Virus record (IMG/VR): IMGVR_UViG_3300022719_000329
Span: 1-64,000 of that record
Direction: 5' to 3' (one strand)
Origin: a virus
DNA length: 64,000 bases
The notes under the pieces were generated by a model. That model did no database searches and was not told the origin of the DNA. It saw nothing but the letters and a program-made list of their open reading frames with translations. Below are positions 17,062-57,597 of this stretch, one piece after another; the stretch's first letter is position 1; the number at the start of each line of letters is the position of its first letter. A program made the translations under genes and the position numbers.

Positions 17062-17826
17062 TTATTCAGTAAGTATTTCTGGACTGCCTTCAGTAACGAG
17101 CACCATGTGCTCGATATGGGTTGCTTTGGATTTATCCAAAGTTATAACGGTCCAGTGATCGGGTAAAACTCCTAGGCCTACTTTAGCCTTTAGCAGCATG
17201 GGTTCCAAACAAAAGACCATTCCGGGCTTTAGTTCGGGCCCCACATTCGGTTTCCCAAAATTAGGAACCTGGGGCGATTCATGCATTTCTTCACCAATGG
17301 CGTGCCCACAGAATTGATAAACATTATGGTACGGAGAGGCCCCTATCGATCTCTGGATACAATGGCAAACGTCTCCTAGTTTATTTCCAGGTACACATGC
17401 ATCAATACCTGCCTGCAGGGCGTCACGGCTGGCCGCTATAATATCTTCGTCTTCGGAAGACATTTGACCTACGCCGAAAAGACGAGCAGCGTCGGCAAAC
17501 CAGCCGTTGAGAGATAAACCACAATCAATAGTGATCATATCCCCCTCTTCAATGATCTCCTGCTCGCTAGGAATTCCATGTACTAAAACATGGTTTCGAG
17601 AAAAACAAATACTGGCAGGGAACGGGGAAGCCGCCATTCCCTTATTATAATTCTTGAAGGCCGGCTTAGCCCCGTGGTCTCTTATAAATTCATCTGCTAT
17701 TACGTCCAGATCCTTTCCAGACTTTCCAGGCTTTGCACAGGAAACCAGCATGTCCAAACATCTTGAAAGCAATGCTCCGGAAATTCTCATTTTTTCAACT
17801 TGCTCGGGTGTCTTTATAACAGACAT
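17062..17826 (-). CDS. map: methionine aminopeptidase type I
   Basis: 254 aa; metal ligands in GDMITIDCG..FADAA, FCGHAIGEEMHE, VFCLEP, IEHMVLVTE; TAATG overlap with the upstream stop. Confidence 0.9.
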   Translation of the reverse strand: MSVIKTPEQVEKMRISGALLSRCLDMLVSCAKPGKSGKDLDVIADEFIRDHGAKPAFKNYNKGMAASPFPASICFSRNHVLVHGIPSEQEIIEEGDMITIDCGLSLNGWFADAARLFGVGQMSSEDEDIIAASRDALQAGIDACVPGNKLGDVCHCIQRSIGASPYHNVYQFCGHAIGEEMHESPQVPNFGKPNVGPELKPGMVFCLEPMLLKAKVGLGVLPDHWTVITLDKSKATHIEHMVLVTEGSPEILTE

Positions 17827-18581
17827 TAATACTCCCCTGGTAATACCACCGTGACCTCGGTCCAACCGCTATGGCTATCTACCATAACATCTACGTTCGG
17901 ATTATCTTCTGCTAGGGACTGCAGAGCCTCTACAAGGGCCTTGTATTTGGCATTCAAAGTAAGATCTCTGTCGGCGAAAGAATCGAAAGGGTTTTTATTG
18001 ACTGCCTCTGTCGTCTCCAGCGTTTCTGGAACCTGCTTCTTGAAGTAATCATGCCAAGCCACATACCAAAGGGAAACTTCCGGAGCATATCTATCCGCTT
18101 GGGACCTATAACGGGCCGGCAGGGCTTTTATTTCCGGCAGCGCTTTATCGTGGCCGCCGTGTTTTATAACCAAGGCAGCCGGCCGGCCTCCTGAATTGTA
18201 AAAAGTAAGGCAGGCCTCTAATTGTACTTTCTTATCAGAAATATTCTTGTATTTGACATAAAATAGCCACCAAAGAAAAGCACAAACGGCTTTGATCCCG
18301 CGGTCTGGATCTTCCGCCTCTTTCTTACTAAAGTTGGCTAGATCAGACGCTTTGGATGTCATTTTGGAAACCAACTGAACTTGTTTAGCCCCAATATTAG
18401 TAAATTGGCCGAATCCATAGGCCCCAGTAGGGCTGGTGGCCCTGGCCTGTATTCTTGATTCTTGAGTTAGCAGGGCGCGTACTAAATTAGCATCGAGTTC
18501 AAAAAGAGCCGCATATTCCTCGATATATCGACGTACCGCTTCCTCTCTTTTTATTAGTTCCTCTGTGATCACTGCGCCCAT
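17826..18581 (-). CDS. lytic transglycosylase (SLT domain)
   Basis: 251 aa; catalytic Glu in LTQESR, GAYGFGQFT, YNSGG. Confidence 0.7.
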   Translation of the reverse strand: MGAVITEELIKREEAVRRYIEEYAALFELDANLVRALLTQESRIQARATSPTGAYGFGQFTNIGAKQVQLVSKMTSKASDLANFSKKEAEDPDRGIKAVCAFLWWLFYVKYKNISDKKVQLEACLTFYNSGGRPAALVIKHGGHDKALPEIKALPARYRSQADRYAPEVSLWYVAWHDYFKKQVPETLETTEAVNKNPFDSFADRDLTLNAKYKALVEALQSLAEDNPNVDVMVDSHSGWTEVTVVLPGEY

Positions 18582-48187: not shown

Positions 48188-48322
48188 ATGCCTCGACCCT
48201 GCTCGGGGCTTCTTCGCGAAGCGATCGGCGACAACGAGATCCACAAGCTCGTCGCCATCCAGGCGGACGGAACCCGCATCGAGCTGGAAGGGCCCATCGG
48301 CTTCGAAGTGTGGGTCAAGTAG
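48188..48322 (+). CDS. possible small protein (44 aa)
   Basis: GC3-rich micro-ORF; its stop lies inside the motif A copy at 48315. Confidence 0.3.
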   Translation: MPRPCSGLLREAIGDNEIHKLVAIQADGTRIELEGPIGFEVWVK

Positions 48323-48328
48323 TTGCTC
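48315..48328 (+). promoter_or_regulatory. promoter-like motif class A variant (TCAAGTAGTTGCTC)
   Basis: Exact core GTAGTTGCTC, 33 nt upstream of the helicase ATG. Confidence 0.45.
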
Positions 48329-48347
48329 TTCATCAGAGGAGGAGGCC

Positions 48348-49571
48348 ATGGAGCTGAACCAACAGCAGCGGCAAGCACGAGATCTGGTTCATGGAACCAG
48401 TGACCATGCCCTGATCTCCGGTTTCGCCGGCGCCGGGAAGACCGTGCTTCTACGTCGGCTGATCGAGGACTTGGAGGCTGACCCCAAGCGCCAAGTCTGT
48501 GTGACTGCCACTACGGGGCTGGCTGCTCAGCATGTCCAAGGTCATACCTTGGCCAAAGTTCTCGGTCTCGGCACCGCCAAGAGCCTGCATGAAATTCCGG
48601 AAGTCGACTTCCGAAAGGCTGAGATTGGGCTCCATCAGATCACAGACATGGTCGTCGACGAAATCTCGATGGCCAGCGGTGACTACCTGGAGCTCGTGGA
48701 TCACGTAATGCAGGCAGTGAGATCCAACCAGGAGCCTTTCGGAGGCGTGAGAATGGTCTTCTGTGGGGACTTCATGCAACTCCCACCCGTCCGTCGCTAC
48801 TCCGACCCTGACCCCCAATACCCGTGGGCTTTCGAGTACCCGGGTTTCCAAGACGTTCTAGCAATTTTCCTGACCCAAAGCATGCGGCAGACGGATGAAG
48901 AAGAGATCCAAACCCTCAACGAATTCCGGCAGGGAATTCTGACTTCCCGAGGGCGCCAGATCCTGAGCGAGATGAACCAGCGGAAGCTTCCGGAGGCAGT
49001 AGACCTCTTTCCCCGCAGGCGGGATGTAGAGACCATTAACCACGCCCGACTCCAGATGCACAAGGGCGAGGAGCGAGTCTACCCGACCTTCGTCCGCCCC
49101 GAAAGCAGGCGCCAAGAAATGTTGGCCCGAGTCTCTATCGGTGAAGAGGTGCGCCTCAAGCTGAGAGCTCCGGTCATCATCCTGACCAACGACCCTGACG
49201 GACACTACGTGAACGGCTCTCAAGGTAAGGTCACCGCCTTCGGCCGCCATTCGATTCGAGTCGAGCTCATCAATGGAGAAGAAGTAGAAGTCGAGAGCCG
49301 GGAATGGGAGATACGAGACCCGCAAGAAGACTTCGTGACCGGCCGAGTCCGTGGTCTCCCGGTACAGCTGGGCTGGGCGGCTACCATCCATCGCTCCCAA
49401 GGAATGACTCTCGCCTCGGTGGTGACCGATATTTCCCGTTGTTGGGAACCTGGGCAAGCATATGTAGCGCTGTCCCGAACCCGAACTCTTCAGAAGGTCG
49501 CCCTCCTCGCCCCGGTGGAGAAGATCAAGGCCGATCCGGTGGCGTTGGCCTATGTGAACAGCCTCTTCTAG
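48348..49571 (+). CDS. Pif1/RecD/Dda-type SF1B DNA helicase
   Basis: 407 aa; Walker A GFAGAGKT, Walker B VVDEISM, FCGDFMQLPPV, ATIHRSQGMT, AYVALSRTR. Confidence 0.85.
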   Translation: MELNQQQRQARDLVHGTSDHALISGFAGAGKTVLLRRLIEDLEADPKRQVCVTATTGLAAQHVQGHTLAKVLGLGTAKSLHEIPEVDFRKAEIGLHQITDMVVDEISMASGDYLELVDHVMQAVRSNQEPFGGVRMVFCGDFMQLPPVRRYSDPDPQYPWAFEYPGFQDVLAIFLTQSMRQTDEEEIQTLNEFRQGILTSRGRQILSEMNQRKLPEAVDLFPRRRDVETINHARLQMHKGEERVYPTFVRPESRRQEMLARVSIGEEVRLKLRAPVIILTNDPDGHYVNGSQGKVTAFGRHSIRVELINGEEVEVESREWEIRDPQEDFVTGRVRGLPVQLGWAATIHRSQGMTLASVVTDISRCWEPGQAYVALSRTRTLQKVALLAPVEKIKADPVALAYVNSLF

Positions 49572-49619
49572 AGAACCAGGGAAGAGGGAAATTAGACTCC
49601 GAATCGTGAGGTAGCCCAC

Positions 49620-49871
49620 ATGGAGAACCCGATAACTCGCAGCCTTCTCATGGGCCTTTTTGCCACCGCTCTTCTGTTGACGGGGCTCGGTATCTTCTGG
49701 TGGGTACTGGATCTTATTTACTCCTCTTGGGGAGTAATGTTGGCTGTAGGAACTGTCCTGTGGGCTGGCTGCGTTTGGATCCACCACCGAGTCCATGACA
49801 AATGGTTCGAGAGCCCTCGAGTCAAGATCATATTCGATACCAACTACGACGACGAAGGTGAGGAGGACTGA
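49620..49871 (+). CDS. small membrane protein
   Basis: 83 aa; two TM helices; GAGGT SD. Confidence 0.45.
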   Translation: MENPITRSLLMGLFATALLLTGLGIFWWVLDLIYSSWGVMLAVGTVLWAGCVWIHHRVHDKWFESPRVKIIFDTNYDDEGEED

Positions 49872-49872
49872 C

Positions 49873-50214
49873 ATGTCCGACGACAGAAGCGATTTCGAGG
49901 AGCTGGCAGCTACTCTCGTGGCCAATTTCGGTTGGTCCGAAGAGGAGTCCAAGAAGTTCCTCGCCGACAAAGTGGGCGTCCGAGGTGTGCAGCTCGATGC
50001 CCGCTACCTTCCACTCATACTCCCGGCACTGTCCAAGATCGGCGTGCCCTTCGGTTCCATCCAGCTGAACTTCCTGGTACCGAACAGCCGCTGGGATGAA
50101 TTCCATCAGGCCGCTCAAGAAGCCATGGCCCCCGAGGGCGGCTTCGTCCTGACCCCCGAGCAGAAGGTCCTCATGGGAGGCTCGGATTCAGGAGAGGACC
50201 CCCGGGCCCACTGA
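49873..50214 (+). CDS. hypothetical protein
   Basis: 113 aa from the ATG after AGGAGGA. Confidence 0.45.
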   Translation: MSDDRSDFEELAATLVANFGWSEEESKKFLADKVGVRGVQLDARYLPLILPALSKIGVPFGSIQLNFLVPNSRWDEFHQAAQEAMAPEGGFVLTPEQKVLMGGSDSGEDPRAH

Positions 50215-50522
50215 TGCAGCCGGCTCAGCTCGTAGTCTTCAACTATATCATCGACGAGATCGCCCGCTTGTCGGGAAAACCCGTAGATCCCAACGAGCGC
50301 TACGACCTGTGGACTTCCATGTGCTTGCACGGGACGCATCCGATCAACCTGCGTCCCAAGCAAGCCATTCTTTATCTGACCAGCCAAGCCCCGAGCCGAG
50401 TCCGGGCCATGCTCTGGAAACGTTTGGGAGAAGACCAGTGGGAAGAGCTGGTCGCCAACCTCCGCAACTTCGATCCCCAAGAGGCCGCTACCAGCGAGAT
50501 CTACACCCAACTGGAGAAGTAA
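50214..50522 (+). CDS. hypothetical protein
   Basis: 102 aa; TGATG overlap with the upstream gene. Confidence 0.45.
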   Translation: MQPAQLVVFNYIIDEIARLSGKPVDPNERYDLWTSMCLHGTHPINLRPKQAILYLTSQAPSRVRAMLWKRLGEDQWEELVANLRNFDPQEAATSEIYTQLEK

Positions 50523-51184
50523 TGATGTGGTTCTACTTGGTTGTGCTGACTGCCACGGCTTGGCTGTGGATGAGACGTTTGCACTATCACGGGGACTGCT
50601 TTTCTCTTCCCCAACCCGTCTTCTATTTCCGCCCCGCTTCTCGCCCTACTCCTCCCCGACTCACAGGTCCCGCTGGTGCTGTCGAGAGAGTGAGAGAGAA
50701 CATGATGAAACGAGCCACGGGCTACTGCGAGAACACCAACTGCGAGGACTACGCCAAGGGCGTGTTCCTCCTGAACCACGGCGACACCTTCCACTGTCCG
50801 CGGTGTCGCTACCACGGCCGAATCGAAGCCGAGAGGGGTCACTATTACGGCAGCGCCGACTACTTCACCGAGGTGCGCGTCGAGTACAACTACGACCCCA
50901 TCACCCTGCGCTACCGAGAGATCGCCATCGTCAAGGACGAGTCGCTTCCGTCGGGCTGCACTTACACCCTGCATTCACCGCTGATCAAGACGGAGAACCG
51001 GGCCCTCAAGGTGGCCGAGGCTGTCTTGGCCAGTCTGAACCGCTTCGGTCTGGAAGACGGCATTCCCAAACAACACGAGACCTTGATGAGCTTCGACAAG
51101 CCTCGGGATGAATTCCGAGCTGACTGCGAAGCCCTGGAACTCCAACTGGAGAAGTCCCCGCTCAGGCGACATCACGCCCACTAG
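50522..51184 (+). CDS. zinc-ribbon protein (possible N-terminal TM)
   Basis: 220 aa; CENTNC ... CPRC; alternative start ATG at 50702. Confidence 0.45.
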   Translation: MMWFYLVVLTATAWLWMRRLHYHGDCFSLPQPVFYFRPASRPTPPRLTGPAGAVERVRENMMKRATGYCENTNCEDYAKGVFLLNHGDTFHCPRCRYHGRIEAERGHYYGSADYFTEVRVEYNYDPITLRYREIAIVKDESLPSGCTYTLHSPLIKTENRALKVAEAVLASLNRFGLEDGIPKQHETLMSFDKPRDEFRADCEALELQLEKSPLRRHHAH

Positions 51185-51200
51185 AAGAAGGAGAACTGCG

Positions 51201-51653
51201 ATGGTTACCGTCTACGGTACCCGCAAGAAACAGGGCCACACCTACGCCGACGTGCCGCCGAAGGGCGAGCGCACGGCCGAGGAAGCTCTCAAGAGCCTCA
51301 TCAAGGCGGAGCTCAACTTCGGCGGTCTGATCAAGGAACTCTCAGAGACCCGTATCGTGGTAGAGACCAGCATCATGGGTGGCGCCTGCATCGATACCAC
51401 CTACTTCGAGGGGGAAGCCGAGGAGATGGCCCCTCTGGTCCTGATCGCCGCCACTTACGCCCGTCTCTCGGCGGAGAAGCGGAACGAGACCATCGACAAG
51501 ACCTGGGCCAAGCTCGAGGGGCTCGGGTCCGAGGTTTCGGGCTCGCCCTTCTTCGTCACGCACCTGACCCCGATGTTGATGGGGCAGTCCGTCATGCGGG
51601 ATGTACTCGCCGAACTCACTGGTCAGGTCTCTCAAGAAAGCGCCGATGGTTGA
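51201..51653 (+). CDS. hypothetical protein
   Basis: 150 aa; AGGAGA SD. Confidence 0.45.
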   Translation: MVTVYGTRKKQGHTYADVPPKGERTAEEALKSLIKAELNFGGLIKELSETRIVVETSIMGGACIDTTYFEGEAEEMAPLVLIAATYARLSAEKRNETIDKTWAKLEGLGSEVSGSPFFVTHLTPMLMGQSVMRDVLAELTGQVSQESADG

Positions 51654-51870
51654 TGAGAAAGCACGACGTGCTTTGCCAAGGAGAAGCCTGATGGGAGTAC
51701 CGGCCGCTGTTAGCCAAAGGGCTAAGGACATTCGGGATGAGATCCACGGCAACCACATCAGCCTCATCCACCAGTATCTGACCGTTGCCAATCAGGAGGC
51801 CTGGCTCGAAGAGAATGAAACTCGCCTTTGGCTGGCTGTCGGTTACTTTTATGCGGGCGCCGGAAGATGA
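51646..51870 (+). CDS. hypothetical protein
   Basis: 74 aa; 8-nt overlap with the upstream gene. Confidence 0.35.
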   Translation: MVDEKARRALPRRSLMGVPAAVSQRAKDIRDEIHGNHISLIHQYLTVANQEAWLEENETRLWLAVGYFYAGAGR

Positions 51871-51950
51871 CGCCGTAGTGATCTGGGTATCGAGCCCGAA
51901 GACTGGACTCATCTCTTGGAAGTGACCGAGAGGGAGTGAAAGGAAATCTC

Positions 51951-52376
51951 ATGAAGTTCACAATCGAGGTAGATCCGGAGAAGACTCCTGATGCCGTCGG
52001 TGAGTTCCTCCGGGATGCCTTCTTCGACCAGCATCAGGACGAGGATGGCTGGTCCATCGGATGCTATTCAGTATTCGACTGGCGGCCGGGTGTACATCCG
52101 CTTCCGGACCTTCCCGTCGAACCCGTCGAACACAACCATCCGGAAGATCAAGAACCGGCAGAGTTGTGCTGGGGCTGCTCGTCCGAAGACATGAAGTGGA
52201 CCCGGGGCGCGAAGTCCTTTGCCCTGCCTGAACTCTATACCATCGAATGCCGATGGTACTGGGATGGAGACGGCACCTTGGCTTTCTCCCTCCCGGGAAA
52301 CCGCTGGCTCGTGAACACCGACTGCAAGAAGGATCACGGCTGGACCCTACTGGCCGAGGGGGAGGAACCCGAGTAG
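51951..52376 (+). CDS. hypothetical acidic protein
   Basis: 141 aa from the ATG at 51951. Confidence 0.45.
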   Translation: MKFTIEVDPEKTPDAVGEFLRDAFFDQHQDEDGWSIGCYSVFDWRPGVHPLPDLPVEPVEHNHPEDQEPAELCWGCSSEDMKWTRGAKSFALPELYTIECRWYWDGDGTLAFSLPGNRWLVNTDCKKDHGWTLLAEGEEPE

Positions 52377-52576
52377 TGCCTCCGTTCATCGAAATCCTAG
52401 CCCTATGCCTGGCCATGCTTGTCTGGTTCGACGTGGCGTGGTCGATCGCCCAACGTGAGCTACCGAACGGCCGAGCAGTTCCGCTTATCATGGTGTGCTT
52501 GTCATCAATAGCCGCCATTGTCATCTACAACACACTCAACCACTTCTACCAGCTGCTGCAAGCGGTGGGTGGCTAG
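52376..52576 (+). CDS. micro membrane protein 1 (66 aa)
   Basis: GTG overlapping the upstream TAG (TAGTG); two TM helices. Confidence 0.4.
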   Translation: MPPFIEILALCLAMLVWFDVAWSIAQRELPNGRAVPLIMVCLSSIAAIVIYNTLNHFYQLLQAVGG

Positions 52577-52585
52577 GAGACCAAC

Positions 52586-52849
52586 ATGCCCGAAGAGTTT
52601 GCTCTAAAGGCCAGCCTCGTGGCCATCGTCTACTTCGTCTGCGGCGTAGCGACTCTGATCGCCGACTGCCTGTGCCGAGAGAGACGCCCGTTGAAGTACG
52701 ACAACCGCCCGCTCCGGTCCTACATCTTTGTCTCTCTGGCTTGGCCGCTTCTGTGGGCGGCCCTGGCCATCATGCTCATCCTCGGCGGCCTCCTGGGGGC
52801 CGCCACGTGGGCGAGTGATCGCCTTACCGACCTATTCGGAGAAGACTGA
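52586..52849 (+). CDS. micro membrane protein 2 (87 aa)
   Basis: AGGAGA SD; two or three TM helices. Confidence 0.45.
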   Translation: MPEEFALKASLVAIVYFVCGVATLIADCLCRERRPLKYDNRPLRSYIFVSLAWPLLWAALAIMLILGGLLGAATWASDRLTDLFGED

Positions 52850-52932
52850 TGGCTACTACCGTTCTACTCGTGTTCTGCAGCTTATTTCTAGGCTTCGGCC
52901 TGTCCCTCGGGGTCGCGGCGTGGTCACTGTGA
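52849..52932 (+). CDS. micro membrane peptide 3 (27 aa)
   Basis: TGATG overlap; MATTVLLVFCSLFLGFGLSLGVAAWSL is a single TM helix. Confidence 0.3.
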   Translation: MATTVLLVFCSLFLGFGLSLGVAAWSL

Positions 52933-53024
52933 AGACCATCGGCGCCGGCGCTTTCTTCAGCGGTTTCTGCTTGCTTGCGCTCATCGCAGTCCGGGCCATC
53001 TGGAACTCCCTGGAGGCCCCGTGA
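52929..53024 (+). CDS. micro membrane peptide 4 (31 aa)
   Basis: GTGA overlap; VKTIGAGAFFSGFCLLALIAVRAIW. Confidence 0.3.
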   Translation: MKTIGAGAFFSGFCLLALIAVRAIWNSLEAP

Positions 53025-53170
53025 AGCGGGCGTGGTGGCAGACTGATCGCTGGAGCCAAAGGCTAGATCACTTCATGCTCTTGGCCCGCCTTTGGGTGAT
53101 CGGACAACTAGCCGGGGGTTGCATCTACATCCTCTGGCTAGCTGATAAGTATCTCCAACACAGCAATTGA
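53021..53170 (+). CDS. micro membrane peptide 5 (49 aa)
   Basis: GTGA overlap; LLARLWVIGQLAGGCIYILWL TM helix. Confidence 0.3.
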   Translation: MKRAWWQTDRWSQRLDHFMLLARLWVIGQLAGGCIYILWLADKYLQHSN

Positions 53171-53181
53171 AAGGGACTTCC

Positions 53182-53343
53182 GTGAGCAAAGAATTGCGTT
53201 GGGCTCGTAAGCAGGGACTGGATTGCGAACAGGACCTAATGGCTGCCCAGCTTCGAGTGTCCTGCTTCGCCCAGACCCTACGGGTCGCCCAGACCGTCCT
53301 TCTGTTCGGGATCTTCCTGGTCCTCTGCATCGGCCCCGACTGA
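53182..53343 (+). CDS. micro membrane peptide 6 (53 aa)
   Basis: GTG start; C-terminal TM TVLLFGIFLVLCIG. Confidence 0.3.
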   Translation: MSKELRWARKQGLDCEQDLMAAQLRVSCFAQTLRVAQTVLLFGIFLVLCIGPD

Positions 53344-53537
53344 TGCCGGGCTGGAAGTACCACATCGAACGCCTTCCCGCGCCCATCTCGGAAAACAAGC
53401 TGGCTCTGCTGGGCCGGCAAGGCTTCGAGCTGACCGGGGTGGCCCACACCACCAAGACAACCTATCTCGAAGCGGGCCCCACTAGAACCCCGCTGACCCA
53501 GGATGTATTCATCTATTACTTCAAGCGGCCGGAATAG
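53343..53537 (+). CDS. small soluble protein, DUF4177-like (64 aa)
   Basis: TGATG overlap; GWKYHIERL...LLGRQGFELTGV resembles the DUF4177 pattern. Confidence 0.4.
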   Translation: MPGWKYHIERLPAPISENKLALLGRQGFELTGVAHTTKTTYLEAGPTRTPLTQDVFIYYFKRPE

Positions 53538-53546
53538 GAGATCAAC

Positions 53547-53756
53547 ATGCGCGTGCTTTTCCTGTGCTTCTGCTTCGCAGCGTGTTGTCTAGTTGGCTTC
53601 GGGTTCACCCAGTTCATGATCTCAGCCGGGCAGAACCTGGAGCCCACTTGGGACAGCCTGTCACTCGGGGCCATGCTCTCGGGTCTACTCTTCTTGGTCA
53701 TCCTACTGGCCGGGGGCATGCTCGACTACCTCGACGGCCCCAAAAAGAAGGGGTAA
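53547..53756 (+). CDS. micro membrane protein 8 (69 aa)
   Basis: AGGAGA SD; two TM helices. Confidence 0.45.
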   Translation: MRVLFLCFCFAACCLVGFGFTQFMISAGQNLEPTWDSLSLGAMLSGLLFLVILLAGGMLDYLDGPKKKG

Positions 53757-53763
53757 ACCTACT

Positions 53764-54216
53764 ATGGAATCCCGATACGTATATCTAAATCCTCGCCAAG
53801 TTCTGGCGATCTACCTATCCCAAGAAGGGGAATGCCTCTACTGCGAACAGAGCCTGACCCCCGAGAATCTGACGGTCGAGCATGTGATCTGTCGCTTTTG
53901 GGGTGGCCCAAGCGATGCCCTGTGGAATTTGGCCCTGGCCTGCGAATCATGCAATAGCCTCAAAGGGGCCCTCGAAGGGGGAATTGCCGAGGGCCTGGAC
54001 AAGATACGCATCAGCAAGATGGAACGTATCCAAAGAGCCATGCAACTCATGCACACAGAAGCCCGGGGTGTTCCTGTAGTCCAACGCATGCTGGTAGAAA
54101 TCAAGCGGCGCTTGAACGCCCTGCAATCCTACATCCACGAGCATCTGCCCGAAGGTGAAGCCCGTTATGGCAGCCCCCACACGCAAGGGCGTGGCCGAGC
54201 CCGGGACGGGCTATGA
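53764..54216 (+). CDS. HNH endonuclease
   Basis: 150 aa; CLYCEQ, LTVEHVICRFWGG, NLALACESCNSLKG. Confidence 0.75.
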   Translation: MESRYVYLNPRQVLAIYLSQEGECLYCEQSLTPENLTVEHVICRFWGGPSDALWNLALACESCNSLKGALEGGIAEGLDKIRISKMERIQRAMQLMHTEARGVPVVQRMLVEIKRRLNALQSYIHEHLPEGEARYGSPHTQGRGRARDGL

Positions 54217-54327
54217 ACCACAGAGAAGAGGACGTCTACTAATCGCAGGCTCTCAAGGGCTGGGTGTTCTGTTACTGACTGGGTGCGCGATGTTGCGCGT
54301 TCCTGGTCAAACACGAGGTTCCGGAAA

Positions 54328-54753
54328 ATGGAAACAAGAAAAGTCCGCCAGAATGGTACAGACAAGGAAGTCACCATCCACATCTGTACCCTCGATGAAC
54401 TCGACGCCAGCGCCATCCGGCAAGGCGACGAGATCAACGTCATCATGCTGGACCCCGACACCAAGATCGATGATCTCGACTGGGAGATGGTTGGGCTCAT
54501 GTACGGCCCGATGGAGGAAGGGGAGACCCTGACTCTAGCTCCCGACACCCTCAGCTGGCCCAAGCTGCTCACCGAGCTTCGCTGCTTCCCCAGCGCCTCT
54601 CAGGCTGCCAAGGACTGGAAGTCCCGGAAACGAGAGCTGCAGATCGAAAAGGGCTTCCAGATCTTTACCATCGGGAAAGCCCGCAAAATCACCCTGGCCG
54701 TCTGGAGGCCCTTCCGAGAGCCCCTGGAAGAGCAACCCACGGCTGCCCCATGA
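54328..54753 (+). CDS. hypothetical protein
   Basis: 141 aa from the ATG at 54328. Confidence 0.45.
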   Translation: METRKVRQNGTDKEVTIHICTLDELDASAIRQGDEINVIMLDPDTKIDDLDWEMVGLMYGPMEEGETLTLAPDTLSWPKLLTELRCFPSASQAAKDWKSRKRELQIEKGFQIFTIGKARKITLAVWRPFREPLEEQPTAAP

Positions 54754-54789
54754 AAGACAGAAGGCCGGAAGATCTAGAGGGAATAGCCC

Positions 54790-54800
54790 TCTATTTTCTC
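54790..54800 (+). promoter_or_regulatory. promoter-like motif class B variant (CTATTTTCTCC)
   Basis: 45 nt upstream of the ATG at 54835. Confidence 0.4.
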
Positions 54801-54834
54801 CTTCTCTCGAACCTTCGACTGGGAGAATCGCCCT

Positions 54835-55062
54835 ATGTTCGTCATCCGTAAGTGCTACCGTGGGCGTGAGTACGCCAAGGTACTGAACCCCGACCCGAAG
54901 ACGCTCGGCCTCATCTTGGCCGACGAGCTCCAGCGCATGCGCCTCGACCCGGACTTCACCCTGACCGTGGAGGCCCAGGCGCACCAGATCACGCCTCCGG
55001 CGCCCCCGATCCACCTTCCCCCCGTCACCCCGGTAGCCCTGCTGCCGGAATCGATCAACTAG
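54835..55062 (+). CDS. hypothetical protein
   Basis: 75 aa; GGGAGA SD. Confidence 0.45.
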   Translation: MFVIRKCYRGREYAKVLNPDPKTLGLILADELQRMRLDPDFTLTVEAQAHQITPPAPPIHLPPVTPVALLPESIN

Positions 55063-55072
55063 GAGATCCGTC

Positions 55073-55489
55073 ATGCACCGCAAGCTTCTCATCATTCTGG
55101 CCCTCGTCGGTTTCGTCGGCTGCACCAAGGCCCCCAGTCCGGAGGCCGTGGCCTGGTACGACACCCAGACCCGTGGGTGGGTCAACGCCGTGATCAACAG
55201 CTGCCAGGCCACCCACTCCAACTTCGAGACCGATCTGAGTCCGGTGGACTGCATGTTCGCCAACGACCTGTCCATGCTGGTCATGACCTTCCCCACTCGC
55301 GAGTTCTACGAGAGGGCGGCCCATGGCGTCGCCGAGTACCTCTTCACGTGGTGCAACAGCGTCCGGGCCCATACCGGCCGCCACTCCAACCTGCGCATCA
55401 TTCTCCGGCACGAGCACGACACGGGCACCACGGGTTGTGCCCAGTTCGTGGAGGGCTACCGGCCGCTCCTCGAAGACGATGGGCCGTAA
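55073..55489 (+). CDS. lipoprotein
   Basis: 138 aa; signal peptide with lipobox F-V-G-C. Confidence 0.55.
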   Translation: MHRKLLIILALVGFVGCTKAPSPEAVAWYDTQTRGWVNAVINSCQATHSNFETDLSPVDCMFANDLSMLVMTFPTREFYERAAHGVAEYLFTWCNSVRAHTGRHSNLRIILRHEHDTGTTGCAQFVEGYRPLLEDDGP

Positions 55490-55796
55490 GCCCCGGGACT
55501 GGAATGCGGTAGCCGCCCATTTTCGCAAGGGTGGGCCGATGAAGCATCGCAACGAGCCCCGAGGCGGTGCCGGACTCGACCCGGAGATCGAAGAAGGGCT
55601 CGAACAGTATCAGACCACCGAACACGAAAAGGCCGCCCAAGAGCTCTTTCGAGCTACACCAGCAGAACTGGGAGAGGCGGCCACGGAGGCGTGCAGTGCC
55701 GAAGCAGATCGATCGCAATCTGGCGGCCCAGCTGTGGGAGCATCTCGGGATCGAGGTGACCAACACTCGGGTGGCACCCCGACAGCATCGGGGTGA
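55479..55796 (+). CDS. small basic/acidic protein (extent uncertain)
   Basis: 105-aa frame starting MGRKPRDWNAVAAHFRKGGPMKHRNEPRGG; its last 100 nt overlap the start of SpoVG-like paralog 3. Confidence 0.3.
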   Translation: MGRKPRDWNAVAAHFRKGGPMKHRNEPRGGAGLDPEIEEGLEQYQTTEHEKAAQELFRATPAELGEAATEACSAEADRSQSGGPAVGASRDRGDQHSGGTPTASG

Positions 55797-56109
55797 AGTG
55801 ACCTTTGTCGGCTATGCCGATTTCCAGATCCTGGTCGCCGGCATCCCCTGCCTGCAGCTGTGCGGGAACAGCATCAAGATCATGGGCACGGGCATCCATT
55901 TCGATCCCAAGAGCGAGAAGGGCCGGGGAGACCGGGCCGGCCACTATTTCCCGCACTGGTTCCCCATGACTCCGGAGGCCCGTGCAGTTCTGGCCGAGAA
56001 GGTGAGCCGGAACCCCGACATCATCGCCATGTGCGCTAGCGCCATCACCGAGCTCGGTGGTGACCCGGCCGAGGTCCAGAACTGGGCCACAGCCATGAGC
56101 GCCCAGTAG
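55696..56109 (+). CDS. SpoVG-fold nucleic-acid-binding protein, paralog 3
   Basis: 137 aa from the GTG after GGAGG-N5; QIDRNLAAQLWEHL aligns with DINRKMAEMLWKQV of paralog 2; TFVGYADFQI..FDPKSEKGRGDRAGHYFPHWFPMTPEAR. Confidence 0.55.
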   Translation: MPKQIDRNLAAQLWEHLGIEVTNTRVAPRQHRGEVTFVGYADFQILVAGIPCLQLCGNSIKIMGTGIHFDPKSEKGRGDRAGHYFPHWFPMTPEARAVLAEKVSRNPDIIAMCASAITELGGDPAEVQNWATAMSAQ

Positions 56110-56148
56110 AACCTATCAATCGACCACCACCAACTGGAGAAAAACCCA

Positions 56149-56637
56149 ATGATGAACTTCTTCCGCGACTTCTGCCGGCACATGTTCGGCATCAACAGCC
56201 CCTACCCCATCCTGATCATCCTCGTGCTTCTCGGGATGACCCTGCTGATCCTGGCCGGCGAGGCCAGGGGTGAGCCGGAGTCCGGGGACTTCTACCAGTA
56301 CCAGGCCATCGACGGCTCGCTGGCCTTCACCGACAACCCCAAGCACATCCCCGCCGCCCACCTGAGCAAGGCCAAGGCCCGCACCTGGGCCGAGCTGCAC
56401 GACTCCACCTCGGGGCGGCGCACGGTGATCGAGATCCCGGAGTCGGTGCGCATGCCCGCCCCCGAGGCCATCGAGATCGATCAGCCGGCTCCGCGTGACT
56501 GCTCCGGACCGCTCCGCGTCACCAGCGAGCGACGCCAGTTCGGGGATCGCAACCGCGAGGTCTTCCTGTACCACGACGCCTGCGGGCGCCTGGTGAGCGA
56601 GACCTTCTTCCAACCCGACCTGTTCATCCATCGCTAG
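56149..56637 (+). CDS. membrane-anchored protein with DUF4124-like motif
   Basis: 162 aa; N-terminal TM; FYQYQAIDGSLAFTDNPKHIP. Confidence 0.5.
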   Translation: MMNFFRDFCRHMFGINSPYPILIILVLLGMTLLILAGEARGEPESGDFYQYQAIDGSLAFTDNPKHIPAAHLSKAKARTWAELHDSTSGRRTVIEIPESVRMPAPEAIEIDQPAPRDCSGPLRVTSERRQFGDRNREVFLYHDACGRLVSETFFQPDLFIHR

Positions 56638-56642
56638 GTCGA

Positions 56643-56668
56643 GCCCGGGGCTCTACGGAGCCCCGGGC
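56643..56668 (+). terminator. 11-bp GC hairpin with tetraloop
   Basis: GCCCGGGGCTC tacg GAGCCCCGGGC, directly after the stop codon; no U-tract. Confidence 0.55.
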
Positions 56669-56718
56669 CTGCCTCGCAGGGGAGAGGGTTTCTCACAGCA
56701 TGGAAGGAGGCTCGTGGG

Positions 56719-57117
56719 ATGGACGACAACCTACGCCACTTGAGCGATCATCCTCGGTTCCAAGGCCAGGATGATCCCTTCACCGATCTCGAGACCTACC
56801 CCGAAGAGCCCGACTTCGACATTCGCAAAGATGATTTCGACGACACCGAGCCAGATCCCAACGCGACCATCTGCGCTTGGTGCGTGCACAGCCGGGACAT
56901 CCGCCCGTGGTGGCGCCGCATTTGGCGCCGGCCGACTCACGAGGACTTGGCTTGCGACGCCACTCCTCGCCAACGAATGCGTGACCCCATCACCGGCCGG
57001 ATGGGCTACAACTTCTTGGGTTCCCAGACTTTCACCCTTCAGCCTCTGGAGTTGTGCAAGTATGTGAACCTAAACGGGCGTTGCCGCAAGTACCGCTTGA
57101 AGGTCACTTACGGCTAG
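56719..57117 (+). CDS. hypothetical protein (acidic N-half, Cys/Arg-rich C-half)
   Basis: 132 aa; GGAGG SD. Confidence 0.45.
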   Translation: MDDNLRHLSDHPRFQGQDDPFTDLETYPEEPDFDIRKDDFDDTEPDPNATICAWCVHSRDIRPWWRRIWRRPTHEDLACDATPRQRMRDPITGRMGYNFLGSQTFTLQPLELCKYVNLNGRCRKYRLKVTYG

Positions 57118-57450
57118 CCTTCGTAAGACCTTACCCCTAATGAGACGGGGTAGACCCCCAGGGACAAGCAGAGCCCATCGTGGGTCACAGAGGCTCGGAC
57201 CGACCGAGTAAAAAGGAAGCGGTGCTCTTACAGACCGAGAGGATAAACATGGGTTGGGCCTAGCCACAGGCTCGAAGGTAGAAGGAGAATACGGGCCAGT
57301 CCAGCGAGGCTGGAAAGACTCCTACACCTACGAATGACTACCAGTGGTGCTAGAACGTCTCCCCACCGGGTGGAGTAATATCCGGGCAATCAAAATTGGT
57401 AAAAATCAGAAAAAACTCGGGGGCGGGTCACTGGTTGGCCCGCCCCCAAC
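57118..57450. ncRNA. candidate structured non-coding RNA (strand unresolved)
   Basis: 333 nt without a credible ORF; hairpins TACCCC/GGGGTA, CTCGG/CCGAG, CCAG/CTGG; an A-rich tract, then an 11-bp GC hairpin. Confidence 0.25.
57418..57446 (-). terminator. GC hairpin whose U-tract lies on the minus strand
   Basis: GGGGGCGGG..CCCGCCCCC, preceded on the plus strand by AAAAAAC/AAAAATC runs, so the minus strand reads hairpin plus T-tract. Confidence 0.4.
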
Positions 57451-57586
57451 CCCTCCCCCAGGAAGTCCTTACTGCCTGGACGCTTCCATGGCCTCTCACG
57501 GCCTGGAGGAACTCCCACCACACCTTAATTCCACCACCCGCAGCTCCTTCTGGGAGCTCCTCCTTCGCGTTGGCGGAGAGAATCAG

Positions 57587-57597
57587 GTATTTTCTCC
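57587..57597 (+). promoter_or_regulatory. promoter-like motif class B (GTATTTTCTCC)
   Basis: 87 nt upstream of the ATG at 57674. Confidence 0.45.

What the first reader, a model, noticed from the sequence alone, without database searches (positions are those of the whole stretch)
52376..53756. Chain of eight translationally coupled micro-ORFs, seven encoding tiny membrane peptides
From 52376 to 53756 I can read eight consecutive ORFs of 66, 87, 27, 31, 49, 53, 64 and 69 aa. They are linked by TAGTG, TGATG or GTGA overlaps or by gaps of 9-11 nt. Seven are essentially one or two hydrophobic helices, and one (53343) looks like the soluble DUF4177 type. Four are below the ORF-track cutoff. The cassette ends at an HNH nuclease gene. 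Such a dense block of micro membrane proteins could be a lysis-timing, superinfection-exclusion or membrane-remodelling module, or a set of toxic peptides.
Basis: seen in the sequence. Interest (0 to 1): 0.6.

Follow-up and report, generated by a model that had tools for sequence, protein, structure and literature searches.

The report
Small membrane-protein gene block, jumbo phage
A 296-kb uncultured phage carries a tight chain of eight tiny genes, seven for membrane-spanning peptides and one for a small soluble protein; they look real but lie in a variable, lineage-specific slot, their function is unknown, and this kind of block is already known in phages.

Summary
Eight same-strand ORFs (66, 87, 27, 31, 49, 53, 64 and 69 aa) tile 52376-53756 with stop/start overlaps or 9-11-nt gaps, and an intact HNH gene follows.

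They are more than chance. Codon-usage scores match real genes for seven of eight (o3 is ambiguous). Five have clear Shine-Dalgarno sites. Same-strand tiling beats 500 of 500 shuffles. Seven of eight carry hydrophobic helices, against 3-6% of other small ORFs in this arm.

- **Setting:** the window is the start of a 295,848-bp jumbo phage. The chain sits in its GC-rich, small-gene arm, probably co-transcribed with a PIF1 helicase.
- **Conservation:** the one reachable syntenic relative keeps the flanking genes but holds unrelated genes in this slot. o2 and o7 have no close homologue; the six others were not searched in the large protein collections. o7 has two distant homologues and is a divergent DUF4177-like beta-alpha-beta-beta protein.
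- **Reading:** these are real, lineage-specific accessory genes in a hyperplastic slot. They probably act on the host membrane early in infection, and superinfection exclusion is my guess. No peptidoglycan hydrolase is adjacent, so a lysis cassette is unlikely.
- **Limit:** function is untested.

The scan has noted similar arrays in other phages, so this is a new member of a known kind.

The parts
48319..48328 (+). Copy of the arm-specific promoter-like motif GTAKTYNCTC in front of the PIF1 helicase gene. The next copy is at 57587.
   Evidence: 10 matches in the window against 1.5 expected, all on the + strand and all at or after 35.8 kb; no copy between 48328 and 57587. That this site drives transcription of the chain is inferred.
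48348..49571 (+). PIF1-type helicase gene, first gene of the putative transcription unit. It is conserved in relatives.
   Evidence: PF05970, E 1.8e-28; homologues at 87% and at 40-57% identity; 46% identity in relative L071.
50690..51184 (+). g160, a conserved CxxC...CxxC protein that forms the left border of the variable slot.
   Evidence: 54-55% identity to the syntenic gene of relative L071; 361 metagenome loci.
51936..52376 (+). u146, an acidic ORFan protein (net charge -18). It probably starts at the ATG at 51951. Its TAG stop overlaps the GTG start of o1.
   Evidence: No family or homologue was found.
52376..52576 (+). o1: 66 aa, two predicted TM helices, GTG start behind GGGGAGG.
   Evidence: 0.21 bits per codon. 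TM helices at 1-25 and 32-54. SD duplex -11.3 kcal/mol.
52586..52849 (+). o2: 87 aa, two predicted TM helices with a basic loop. Its start region is TAGGAGACCAACATG.
   Evidence: 0.28 bits per codon; -7.3; repeat D12. It is a singleton in the 5.8-billion-cluster protein search. Atlas neighbours are unnamed clusters, mostly viral, of similar size.
52849..52932 (+). o3: 27 aa, one uncharged TM helix, TGATG overlap with o2. This is one of the two weakest ORFs (with o4).
   Evidence: SD GGAGAAG, -6.6; only 0.03 bits per codon; not called as a gene in the public collection.
52929..53024 (+). o4: 31 aa, one TM helix, GTGA overlap with o3 and a weak SD.
   Evidence: 0.25 bits per codon, but two other frames score 0.18-0.21. 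(-5.4).
53021..53170 (+). o5: 49 aa, basic Trp-rich N-terminus plus one weaker TM helix, GTGA overlap with o4, SD GGAGG.
   Evidence: 0.20 bits per codon; -9.3.
53182..53343 (+). o6: 53 aa (58 aa if it starts at the TTG at 53167). Polar N-terminal 30 aa and a C-terminal TM helix.
   Evidence: 0.29 bits per codon; -5.0.
53343..53537 (+). o7: 64-aa soluble beta-alpha-beta-beta protein, a divergent DUF4177-like form. It has a TGATG overlap with o6 and no SD of its own.
   Evidence: 0.35 bits per codon; two homologues at 47-51% identity; pLDDT 89.5. Searches support the DUF4177 likeness; below Pfam's threshold.
53547..53756 (+). o8: 69 aa, two TM helices and a basic C-terminus (GPKKKG). Its start region is TAGGAGATCAACATG.
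   Evidence: 0.25 bits per codon; -7.3; D12. The public gene call has the same ends. No phage match.
53764..54216 (+). Free-standing HNH endonuclease gene with two CxxC pairs, closing the lineage-specific block.
   Evidence: a paralogue in the genome at 79.7 kb; only weak HNH hits elsewhere in relative G001, none in the slot.
54328..54753 (+). d156, a conserved gene that forms the right border of the variable slot.
   Evidence: 35-37% identity to the syntenic gene of relative L071.
54775..54803 (+). Terminator-like hairpin plus T-run. This is the first such site downstream of the chain on the + strand.
   Evidence: The number of such sites in the region is not above the shuffle expectation, so this is weak evidence.

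Best explanation
The chain is a set of genuine small genes. They are co-transcribed and translated by re-initiation or short-range coupling. Together with three upstream ORFan genes (51.2-52.4 kb) and a free-standing HNH endonuclease gene, they form a lineage-specific accessory block.

The block fills a hyperplastic slot between two conserved genes (g160 and d156). These lie in an operon headed by a PIF1 helicase, in the GC-rich, small-gene, rightward-read arm of a 296-kb jumbo phage.

Seven products are one- or two-helix peptides that would insert into the host cytoplasmic membrane. One (o7) is a soluble DUF4177-like protein.

Because they are expressed alongside replication and takeover genes rather than lysis genes, I think they most likely act on the host envelope early or midway in infection. 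My preferred role is blocking entry of competing phages (superinfection exclusion) or binding and modulating host membrane proteins.

Shown:
- The ORFs, coding bias, ribosome-binding sites and hydrophobic helices.
- The uniqueness of the cluster in the genome.
- The variability of the slot.
- Conservation of o7.

Inferred:
- Transcription unit and timing.
- Membrane insertion.
- Any function.

My confidence that at least six of the eight are real genes is about 0.8. My confidence in the specific exclusion or modulation role is only about 0.2.
For: - Coding signal: the named frame scores best of six for every ORF, at real-gene level for seven of eight. The combined P is 1.3e-5.
- Ribosome-binding sites: SD duplexes of -6.6 kcal/mol or stronger precede o1, o2, o3, o5 and o8. 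Only 14.6% of random positions reach -6.
- Start regions: o2 and o8 share a near-identical stop-SD-start junction, TAGGAGAYCAACATG (D12). The d75/d138 junction has the same TAGGAGATC stop-SD core but a longer spacer (TAGGAGATCCGTCATG).
- Tiling: same-strand tiling exceeds 500 of 500 shuffles.
- Hydrophobicity: 7 of 8 ORFs have TM segments, against 3-6% background. This is the only such cluster in the genome.
- o7 conservation: two homologues with 21 invariant columns and a confident fold.
- Slot variability: relative G001 keeps pif1, g160, d156, d180, d162 and d132 in order. Between g160 and d156 it has three unrelated soluble genes (HD_4-like, a 63-aa ORF, DSPc-like).
- ORFan status: o2 and o7 are singletons in the word-indexed search of 5.8 billion clusters. 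o2, o8 and u146 have no match in GenBank phages.
- Transcription unit: the arm-specific promoter-like motif sits before pif1 and recurs only at 57587.
- Arm character: median gene length is 104 aa and 91% of genes are on the + strand.
- Other envelope proteins in the unit: an 83-aa 2-TM protein, a lipoprotein-like d138 and a signal-anchored d162 lie in the same unit.
Against: - No frame conservation could be shown for the seven membrane peptides. The only reachable syntenic relative lacks them all.
- o2 has no homologue anywhere.
- o3 has near-zero codon score and o4 has a weak SD, so one or both may be untranslated.
- There are no expression data.
- No family hit supports any function.
- The promoter motif is itself only inferred, and the terminator scan is not above chance.
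- ORFan status fits young or non-functional ORFs as well as fast-evolving accessory genes.
Confidence: 0.55

Rival explanations
1. Lysis module. The peptides are holins, antiholins or spanin-like timers, and o8 is a class II holin.
For: o8 has two TM helices, short basic termini and a charged C-terminus (GPKKKG), as class II holins do (the comparison rests on my own knowledge of S21-type holins). Holins are too diverse for a missing family hit to exclude them.
Against: None of the ten neighbouring genes scanned matches a peptidoglycan hydrolase. Phage_lysozyme, Amidase_2 and Peptidase_M15_4 are absent from the genome. The two SLT-domain genes lie 14 kb downstream and 34 kb upstream. The chain appears to share a unit with a helicase gene in the small-gene arm. 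No holin family hit in Pfam or PHROGs.
Confidence: 0.1
2. Host-shutoff or toxic peptides. They are small hydrophobic peptides that depolarise or jam the host membrane, like type I toxins or phage Kil-type peptides, and have no exclusion role.
For: Short 1-2-TM peptides are often toxic when expressed. The nearest Atlas cluster with a family name for o2 is GhoT/OrtT at 0.85, a score the tool itself rates as often chance. A DUF4177 protein was reported to have bacteriocin-like activity (PMC11322243).
Against: No hit to toxin or defence models in Pfam, NCBIfam or PADLOC. Seven different, non-paralogous peptides are more than simple depolarisation would need. No antisense RNA or antitoxin signature was sought or seen, and Rfam found nothing.
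Confidence: 0.12
3. Non-functional or decaying sequence. The chain is either the frameshifted remains of one or two multi-pass membrane-protein genes, or young de novo ORFs in a fast-turnover slot that are translated little or not at all.
For: The seven membrane peptides have no detectable homologues in what was searched, and only o2 went through the large protein collection. Each successive frame shifts by -1 (from the coordinates). o3 and o4 are very short with weak signals. GTGA overlaps are cheap in GC-rich DNA.
Against: Every junction has a start codon placed exactly at or just after the preceding stop. Five starts have a good SD, and two have the same elaborate junction motif. Codon bias is at real-gene level. 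The embedded o7 is conserved and folds confidently. No piece hits a multi-pass family.
Confidence: 0.12
4. Chance ORFs in an untranslated spacer or regulatory region.
For: Four ORFs are under 60 aa, and GC-rich DNA has few stop codons.
Against: Tiling exceeds 500 of 500 shuffles. The frame-specific codon score has combined P 1.3e-5. TM enrichment has P about 1e-8. SD sites are present. o7 has homologues. No Rfam match.
Confidence: 0.03

Closest known systems
Hyperplastic regions (HPRs) of T4-like phages: clusters of small variable ORFan genes set between blocks of conserved core genes (PMC4122927, PMC2839356)
   Same: Small, mostly ORFan genes on one strand fill a slot between conserved genes, and the slot's content differs completely between related phages. 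A free-standing homing-type endonuclease gene is adjacent. The link to early-type genes also matches.
   Different: This phage is an unrelated uncultured jumbo phage with a two-composition genome. No flanking promoter-stem-loop (PeSL-like) repeats were found around the block. The concentration of membrane peptides is not a defining feature of HPRs.
Arrays of translationally coupled micro-genes for single-helix membrane peptides in E. coli and other phages, noted earlier by this scan (e1-254232, e1-250410, e1-324758, e1-3752618)
   Same: Chains of 5-13 tightly coupled genes of 20-50 codons. Most encode one hydrophobic helix. Their content varies between related phages and their function is untested.
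   Different: Most of those arrays sit next to lysis or packaging genes of temperate coliphages and have conserved relatives. This one sits in a replication and takeover operon of a jumbo phage. It mixes 1-TM and 2-TM peptides with a soluble DUF4177-like protein, and no homologue of its membrane peptides was found. I did not re-test those earlier findings.
Inner-membrane superinfection-exclusion proteins: T4 Imm and Sp (my own knowledge) and P22 SieA (PMC10883804)
   Same: They are phage-encoded inner-membrane proteins outside the lysis cassette. T4 Imm and Sp are small (my own knowledge). Their topology classes (1-2 TM) are similar to those here.
   Different: No sequence similarity. Known systems use one or two proteins, not seven. 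The phenotype is untested here.
DUF4177 (PF13783), for example the 66-aa PEG 446 of Clostridium tyrobutyricum (PMC11322243)
   Same: o7 is about 65 aa with beta-alpha-beta-beta order. It has W-x-Y near the N-terminus, a G-x-x-G-[WF]-E-L-x-G motif and a F-K-R motif at the end. Support: hhalign probability 82% and E 1e-5, and Atlas feature and structure neighbours.
   Different: o7 and both its homologues give no Pfam match even at E 1. The o7 family has a conserved P-I-S-E-N motif and a longer beta2-beta3 hairpin. The function of DUF4177 is itself unknown.
Class II holins (S21 type)
   Same: o8 has the same size, two TM helices and a charged C-terminus.
   Different: No adjacent endolysin, no family match, and the genomic context is not late genes.

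Membership tests
DUF4177 (Pfam PF13783), for o7 | Match to the Pfam model at or above its gathering score (25 bits) | tested here: not met
   o7 gives no match even at E 1. A genome-wide six-frame search with PF13783 at E 10 also finds nothing. The homologues P0124 and P0125 do not match either.
DUF4177 (Pfam PF13783), for o7 | Detectable profile similarity to a bona fide member | tested here: met
   hhalign of the o7 family alignment (A3) against PEG 446, whose sequence is printed in PMC11322243. Probability 82%, E 1e-5, 45 columns, 31% identity. This is a single pairwise comparison, so the support is moderate.
DUF4177 (Pfam PF13783), for o7 | Protein of about 60-70 aa with a beta-alpha-beta-beta fold | tested here: met
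   The AF2 model has pLDDT 89.5 with E4-11, H17-25, E29-44 and E47-63. Atlas gives TM 0.79 to a cluster that is 65% DUF4177, and feature scores of 0.88-0.89. DUF4177 phage proteins are among the top BFVD rows, but only at E 3e-3 or weaker.
Class II holin, for o8 | Two TM helices with a charged C-terminal tail | tested here: inconclusive
   Kyte-Doolittle predicts helices at 1-25 and 36-63, with a tail DYLDGPKKKG. The topology is inferred, and no dedicated predictor was available.
Class II holin, for o8 | Location in a lysis cassette next to an endolysin gene | tested here: not met
   Neighbouring genes have no hydrolase domain. The only muralytic domains found (SLT) lie at 17.8-18.6 kb and 67.9 kb.
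T4-type hyperplastic region (accessory ORFan cluster) | Slot between conserved genes whose content differs between related phages | tested here: met
   G001 keeps pif1, g160, d156, d180, d162 and d132. It has none of g139, g102, g181, g89, u146, o1-o8 or this HNH gene.
T4-type hyperplastic region (accessory ORFan cluster) | Genes small and mostly without homologues | tested here: met
   o7 alone has two distant homologues.
T4-type hyperplastic region (accessory ORFan cluster) | Flanking mobile promoter-stem-loop cassettes (PeSLs) | tested here: not met
   No meaningful direct or inverted repeats flank the block. No copy of the arm's promoter-like motif lies inside 48329-57586.
Superinfection-exclusion membrane proteins (Imm, Sp, SieA type) | Homology to a known exclusion protein | tested here: not met
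   No hits in Pfam, PHROGs, NCBIfam or PADLOC.
Superinfection-exclusion membrane proteins (Imm, Sp, SieA type) | Blocks DNA entry of a second phage when expressed | not testable with these tools
   This needs the host, which is unknown, and infection assays.

The most novel reading that the evidence does not exclude
The block, from roughly 51.2 kb to the HNH gene, is a self-spreading cassette. The HNH homing endonuclease cuts related co-infecting genomes that lack it, and repair copies the cassette in. The seven membrane peptides, with the DUF4177-like protein as a soluble partner, assemble into one hetero-oligomeric membrane complex that excludes or disadvantages competitor phages. Selfish spread and competitive benefit would then be genetically linked.
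Probability: 0.07. Interest if true: 0.6.

Novelty: new member of a known kind. Interest (0 to 1): 0.3.

Why it matters
Small phage membrane proteins are under-annotated. Here, o3 is absent from the public protein collection. Their functions are largely unknown, although the few studied ones control superinfection, lysis timing and host physiology.

This case adds a dense example from an uncultured jumbo phage. It shows that the block sits in a fast-turnover slot of an otherwise conserved operon, and that it includes a divergent branch of the uncharacterised DUF4177 fold.

It opens no new question by itself. It would be a reasonable test set (eight small constructs) if the phage's host is identified.

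Tried and rejected
Searches that found no relatives of the chain:
1. Close relatives through the search for related loci with u146, o2 and PIF1 in IMG/VR: none.
2. An exact scan of IMG/VR for the 14-nt promoter motif gave only single chance matches. This was a wasted scan.
3. The search for homologous proteins with o7 and o2 returned only the queries themselves.
4. With PIF1 the same tool found relatives at 87% and 40-57% identity.
5. A g160 alignment against JGI metagenomes gave 361 loci at 63-66% identity, but none shares the neighbourhood. That family is widespread and was not a useful anchor.
6. The o7 family alignment against IMG/VR and GTDB genomes found nothing.
7. The PIF1 alignment against GTDB genomes gave only hits at 34% identity or less in full-length matches, in unrelated MAGs.
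8. The d156 alignment against IMG/VR found only the one lineage already known.
9. tblastn of o2, o8 and u146 against 50,697 GenBank phages, and blastn of 6 kb of the region: no match.

Other checks:
10. No paralogy among the eight ORFs or elsewhere in the genome.
11. My crude longest-ORF count of small TM genes downstream of g160 in other loci failed its own positive control, because shadow ORFs masked the chain. I discarded it.
12. The idea that the chain is a lysis cassette was rejected on context.
13. Chance ORFs were rejected on statistics.

Full report
**What is there.**

| ORF | Coordinates | Start | Length |
|---|---|---|---|
| o1 | 52376-52576 | GTG | 66 aa |
| o2 | 52586-52849 | ATG | 87 aa |
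| o3 | 52849-52932 | ATG | 27 aa |
| o4 | 52929-53024 | GTG | 31 aa |
| o5 | 53021-53170 | GTG | 49 aa |
| o6 | 53182-53343 | GTG (or TTG at 53167) | 53 aa |
| o7 | 53343-53537 | ATG | 64 aa |
| o8 | 53547-53756 | ATG | 69 aa |

The junctions, in order from the upstream gene u146:
- TAGTG overlap (u146/o1)
- 9-nt gap (o1/o2)
- TGATG overlap (o2/o3)
- GTGA overlap (o3/o4)
- GTGA overlap (o4/o5)
- 11-nt gap, or a TTGA overlap if o6 starts at 53167 (o5/o6)
- TGATG overlap (o6/o7)
- 9-nt gap (o7/o8)

A 150-aa HNH endonuclease gene with both CxxC pairs follows at 53764 (Pfam HNH_5 E 1e-7; several PHROG HNH families). Kyte-Doolittle windows give 2, 2, 1, 1, 1 (weak), 1, 0 and 2 hydrophobic helices for o1-o8. 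That is seven membrane peptides and one soluble protein.

**Is it more than chance?** Five independent tests say yes.
- **Base composition.** In every named frame GC3 is 0.66-0.84 and GC2 is 0.37-0.53.
- **Codon model.** I trained a model on long genes of the same compositional arm. The named frame scores best of six for each ORF, at 0.20-0.35 bits per codon, in the middle of the range for fragments of real genes. The exception is o3 at 0.03. The Fisher-combined P against wrong-frame ORFs of similar length is 1.3e-5.
- **Ribosome-binding sites.** Anti-SD duplex energies are -11.3, -7.3, -6.6, -5.4, -9.3, -5.0, -1.7 and -7.3 kcal/mol for o1-o8. Only 14.6% of random positions reach -6. o7, which has no SD, starts in a TGATG overlap.
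- **Shared junction.** o2 and o8 share an almost identical stop-SD-start junction, TAGGAGAYCAACATG. The next lipoprotein-like gene starts behind the same TAGGAGATC stop-SD core with a longer spacer.
- **Tiling and hydrophobicity.** Same-strand tiling is 99.7%, against 76 +/- 8% in dinucleotide shuffles (0 of 500 reach it). TM-like segments occur in 3% of uncalled and 6% of called small ORFs in this arm, so 7 of 8 has P near 1e-8. In a crude whole-genome gene call (440 genes, 18 small TM genes) this is the only cluster.

No Rfam family matches the region. o3 (poor codon score) and o4 (weak SD, and two competing frames score almost as well) are the least secure.

**Setting.** The window is the first 64 kb of a 295,848-bp IMG/VR virus record with a 127-bp terminal repeat. 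Its GC content is bimodal: about 44-46% in one part and 50-64% from 36 to 150 kb.

The chain lies in the GC-rich arm. There, 91% of genes are on the + strand and the median gene is about 104 aa.

An arm-specific promoter-like motif was noted earlier (e1-3296038). I re-counted it at 10 matches against 1.5 expected. It precedes a PIF1-type helicase gene at 48348 (PF05970, E 1.8e-28). It does not recur until 57587, even allowing three mismatches to the long form. The first terminator-like hairpin on the + strand after the chain is at 54775 (weak evidence).

I therefore infer, but have not shown, that the chain is co-transcribed with the helicase gene.

The same stretch holds three other probable envelope proteins:
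- An 83-aa 2-TM protein at 49620.
- A lipoprotein-like 138-aa protein at 55073.
- A signal-anchored 162-aa protein at 56149.

**Relatives.** No close relative of this region was found in IMG/VR or GenBank phages.

PIF1 has homologues at 87% and 40-57% identity in public assemblies.

The nearest reachable relative is a complete 297,725-bp IMG/VR phage (G001; PIF1 46% identical). I fetched it whole.
- It keeps pif1, g160, d156, d180, d162 and d132 in the same order.
- It has no homologue of g139, g102, g181, g89, u146 or any of o1-o8 anywhere in its genome.
- Between g160 and d156 it has 1.2 kb with an HD_4-like 82-aa gene, a 63-aa gene and a DSPc-like 147-aa gene. Here the same interval is 3.1 kb with twelve genes.

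Another phage with a g160 homologue (L230) has, downstream of it, an IF-1 homologue and scattered unrelated small genes, some hydrophobic.

The chain therefore occupies a hyperplastic slot. o2 and o7 are singletons in the word-indexed 5.8-billion-cluster search. So even the 87% relative probably lacks them, or its contigs end first.

**o7.** The exhaustive HMMER search of 1.84 billion representatives found two true homologues. P0124 is 99 aa, 47% identical, E 3.5e-5. P0125 is 64 aa, 51% identical, E 4.2e-5. The three longer hits are repeat-driven and unrelated.

The three-sequence alignment has 21 invariant columns, including W-K-Y, P-I-S-E-N, E-L-x-G and Y-Y-F-K-x-P. AlphaFold on it gives pLDDT 89.5 and a beta-alpha-beta-beta fold.

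Evidence on the DUF4177 likeness is mixed.
- **Against:** Pfam's DUF4177 model does not match any of the three, nor the genome in six frames.
- **For:** ESM-Atlas places o7 beside DUF4177-containing clusters (features 0.88-0.89, structure TM 0.79).
- **For:** DUF4177 phage proteins are among the top, though weak, BFVD matches.
- **For:** hhalign against the DUF4177 protein PEG 446, printed in PMC11322243, gives probability 82% and E 1e-5.

I read o7 as a divergent relative of DUF4177. DUF4177 has no established function; one report claims bacteriocin-like activity for PEG 446.

**Function.** None of the membrane peptides matches Pfam, PHROGs, NCBIfam or PADLOC. They are not paralogues of one another. 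The Atlas neighbours of o2 are unnamed, mostly viral clusters of similar size.

Context argues against a lysis cassette. No neighbouring gene has a muralytic domain. Phage_lysozyme, Amidase_2 and Peptidase_M15_4 are absent from the genome. The two SLT-domain genes lie 14 kb and 34 kb away. o8 does have a class II holin-like outline, so I keep that rival at about 0.1.

The chain shares its arm and probable transcript with helicase, SSB and SpoVG-like genes, and other envelope proteins sit beside it. I therefore favour early or middle-expressed accessory membrane proteins. Candidate roles are superinfection exclusion or modulation of host membrane proteins, by analogy with T4 Imm and Sp and with P22 SieA (PMC10883804). 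This is an inference from context, with about 0.2 confidence for the specific role.

The rivals are toxic or host-shutoff peptides, decaying or de novo ORFs, and chance. Each is listed with its evidence in the rival explanations.

**Comparison and novelty.** The closest described architecture is the hyperplastic region of T4-like phages: small ORFan genes grouped between conserved core blocks (PMC4122927, PMC2839356). The PeSL-type flanking repeats of those regions were not found here.

This scan has already recorded many coupled arrays of micro membrane-peptide genes in other phages (e1-254232, e1-250410, e1-324758, e1-3752618). So the kind is known and its function is generally untested.

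What is particular here:
- The host genome is a two-composition jumbo phage.
- The chain's context is replication and takeover genes, not lysis or packaging.
- A DUF4177-like soluble protein is embedded in the chain.
- No homologue was found for the membrane peptides, although only o2 was searched in the large collections.

I class it as a new member of a known kind, with modest interest (0.3).

Noticed in passing
window 1-64000; whole genome G000: The 295,848-bp phage genome has two compositions. GC is about 44-46% in 150-296 kb plus 1-36 kb, where genes are mostly on the - strand with a median of 167 aa. GC is 50-64% in 36-150 kb, where 91% of genes are on the + strand with a median of 104 aa. 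The relative G001 shows a milder version (0.42-0.52). The scan has already followed this up (e1-3296040).
   Followed up: partly
window 50690-51184: g160 is a protein of about 160 aa with CxxC...CxxC motifs and no Pfam family. It has 361 relatives in JGI metagenome contigs at 63-66% identity from very diverse habitats. That is closer than the copy in the syntenic phage relative (55%). None of those contigs shares the neighbouring genes. It is a very conserved, widespread, unnamed family.
   Followed up: partly
window 55073-55489: A 138-aa protein starts with a lipoprotein-like signal (MHRKLLIILALVGFVGC). It sits behind the same TAGGAGATC stop-SD core as o2 and o8, with a longer spacer. It may be a phage lipoprotein in the same operon. 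It has no family hit and no homologue in the relative G001.
   Followed up: partly
window 49620-49871: An 83-aa ORF with two TM helices and an acidic tail lies directly after the PIF1 helicase gene. It overlaps the longer alternative start of the next ORF (49795). It has a good codon score and no family hit.
   Followed up: partly
window 51936-52376: u146 is strongly acidic (net charge -18), Trp- and Cys-containing, and an ORFan. Its stop overlaps the start of o1. Acidic early phage proteins are sometimes DNA mimics or anti-defence proteins. This was not tested.
   Followed up: no
genome G000 79265-79921 (outside the window): A second HNH-type ORF is 42% identical to the HNH at 53764 over 57 aa. 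So the phage carries at least two related free-standing HNH genes in the GC-rich arm.
   Followed up: no
L230 8516-8737: A 267-kb IMG/VR phage that carries a g160 homologue encodes a 73-aa homologue of translation initiation factor IF-1 (PF01176, E 1.5e-16) directly downstream of it.
   Followed up: partly
window 17826-18581 (-) and genome 67.9 kb (+): Two SLT (lytic transglycosylase) domain proteins are the only peptidoglycan-hydrolase domains found among the four families searched. One lies in each compositional arm.
   Followed up: no
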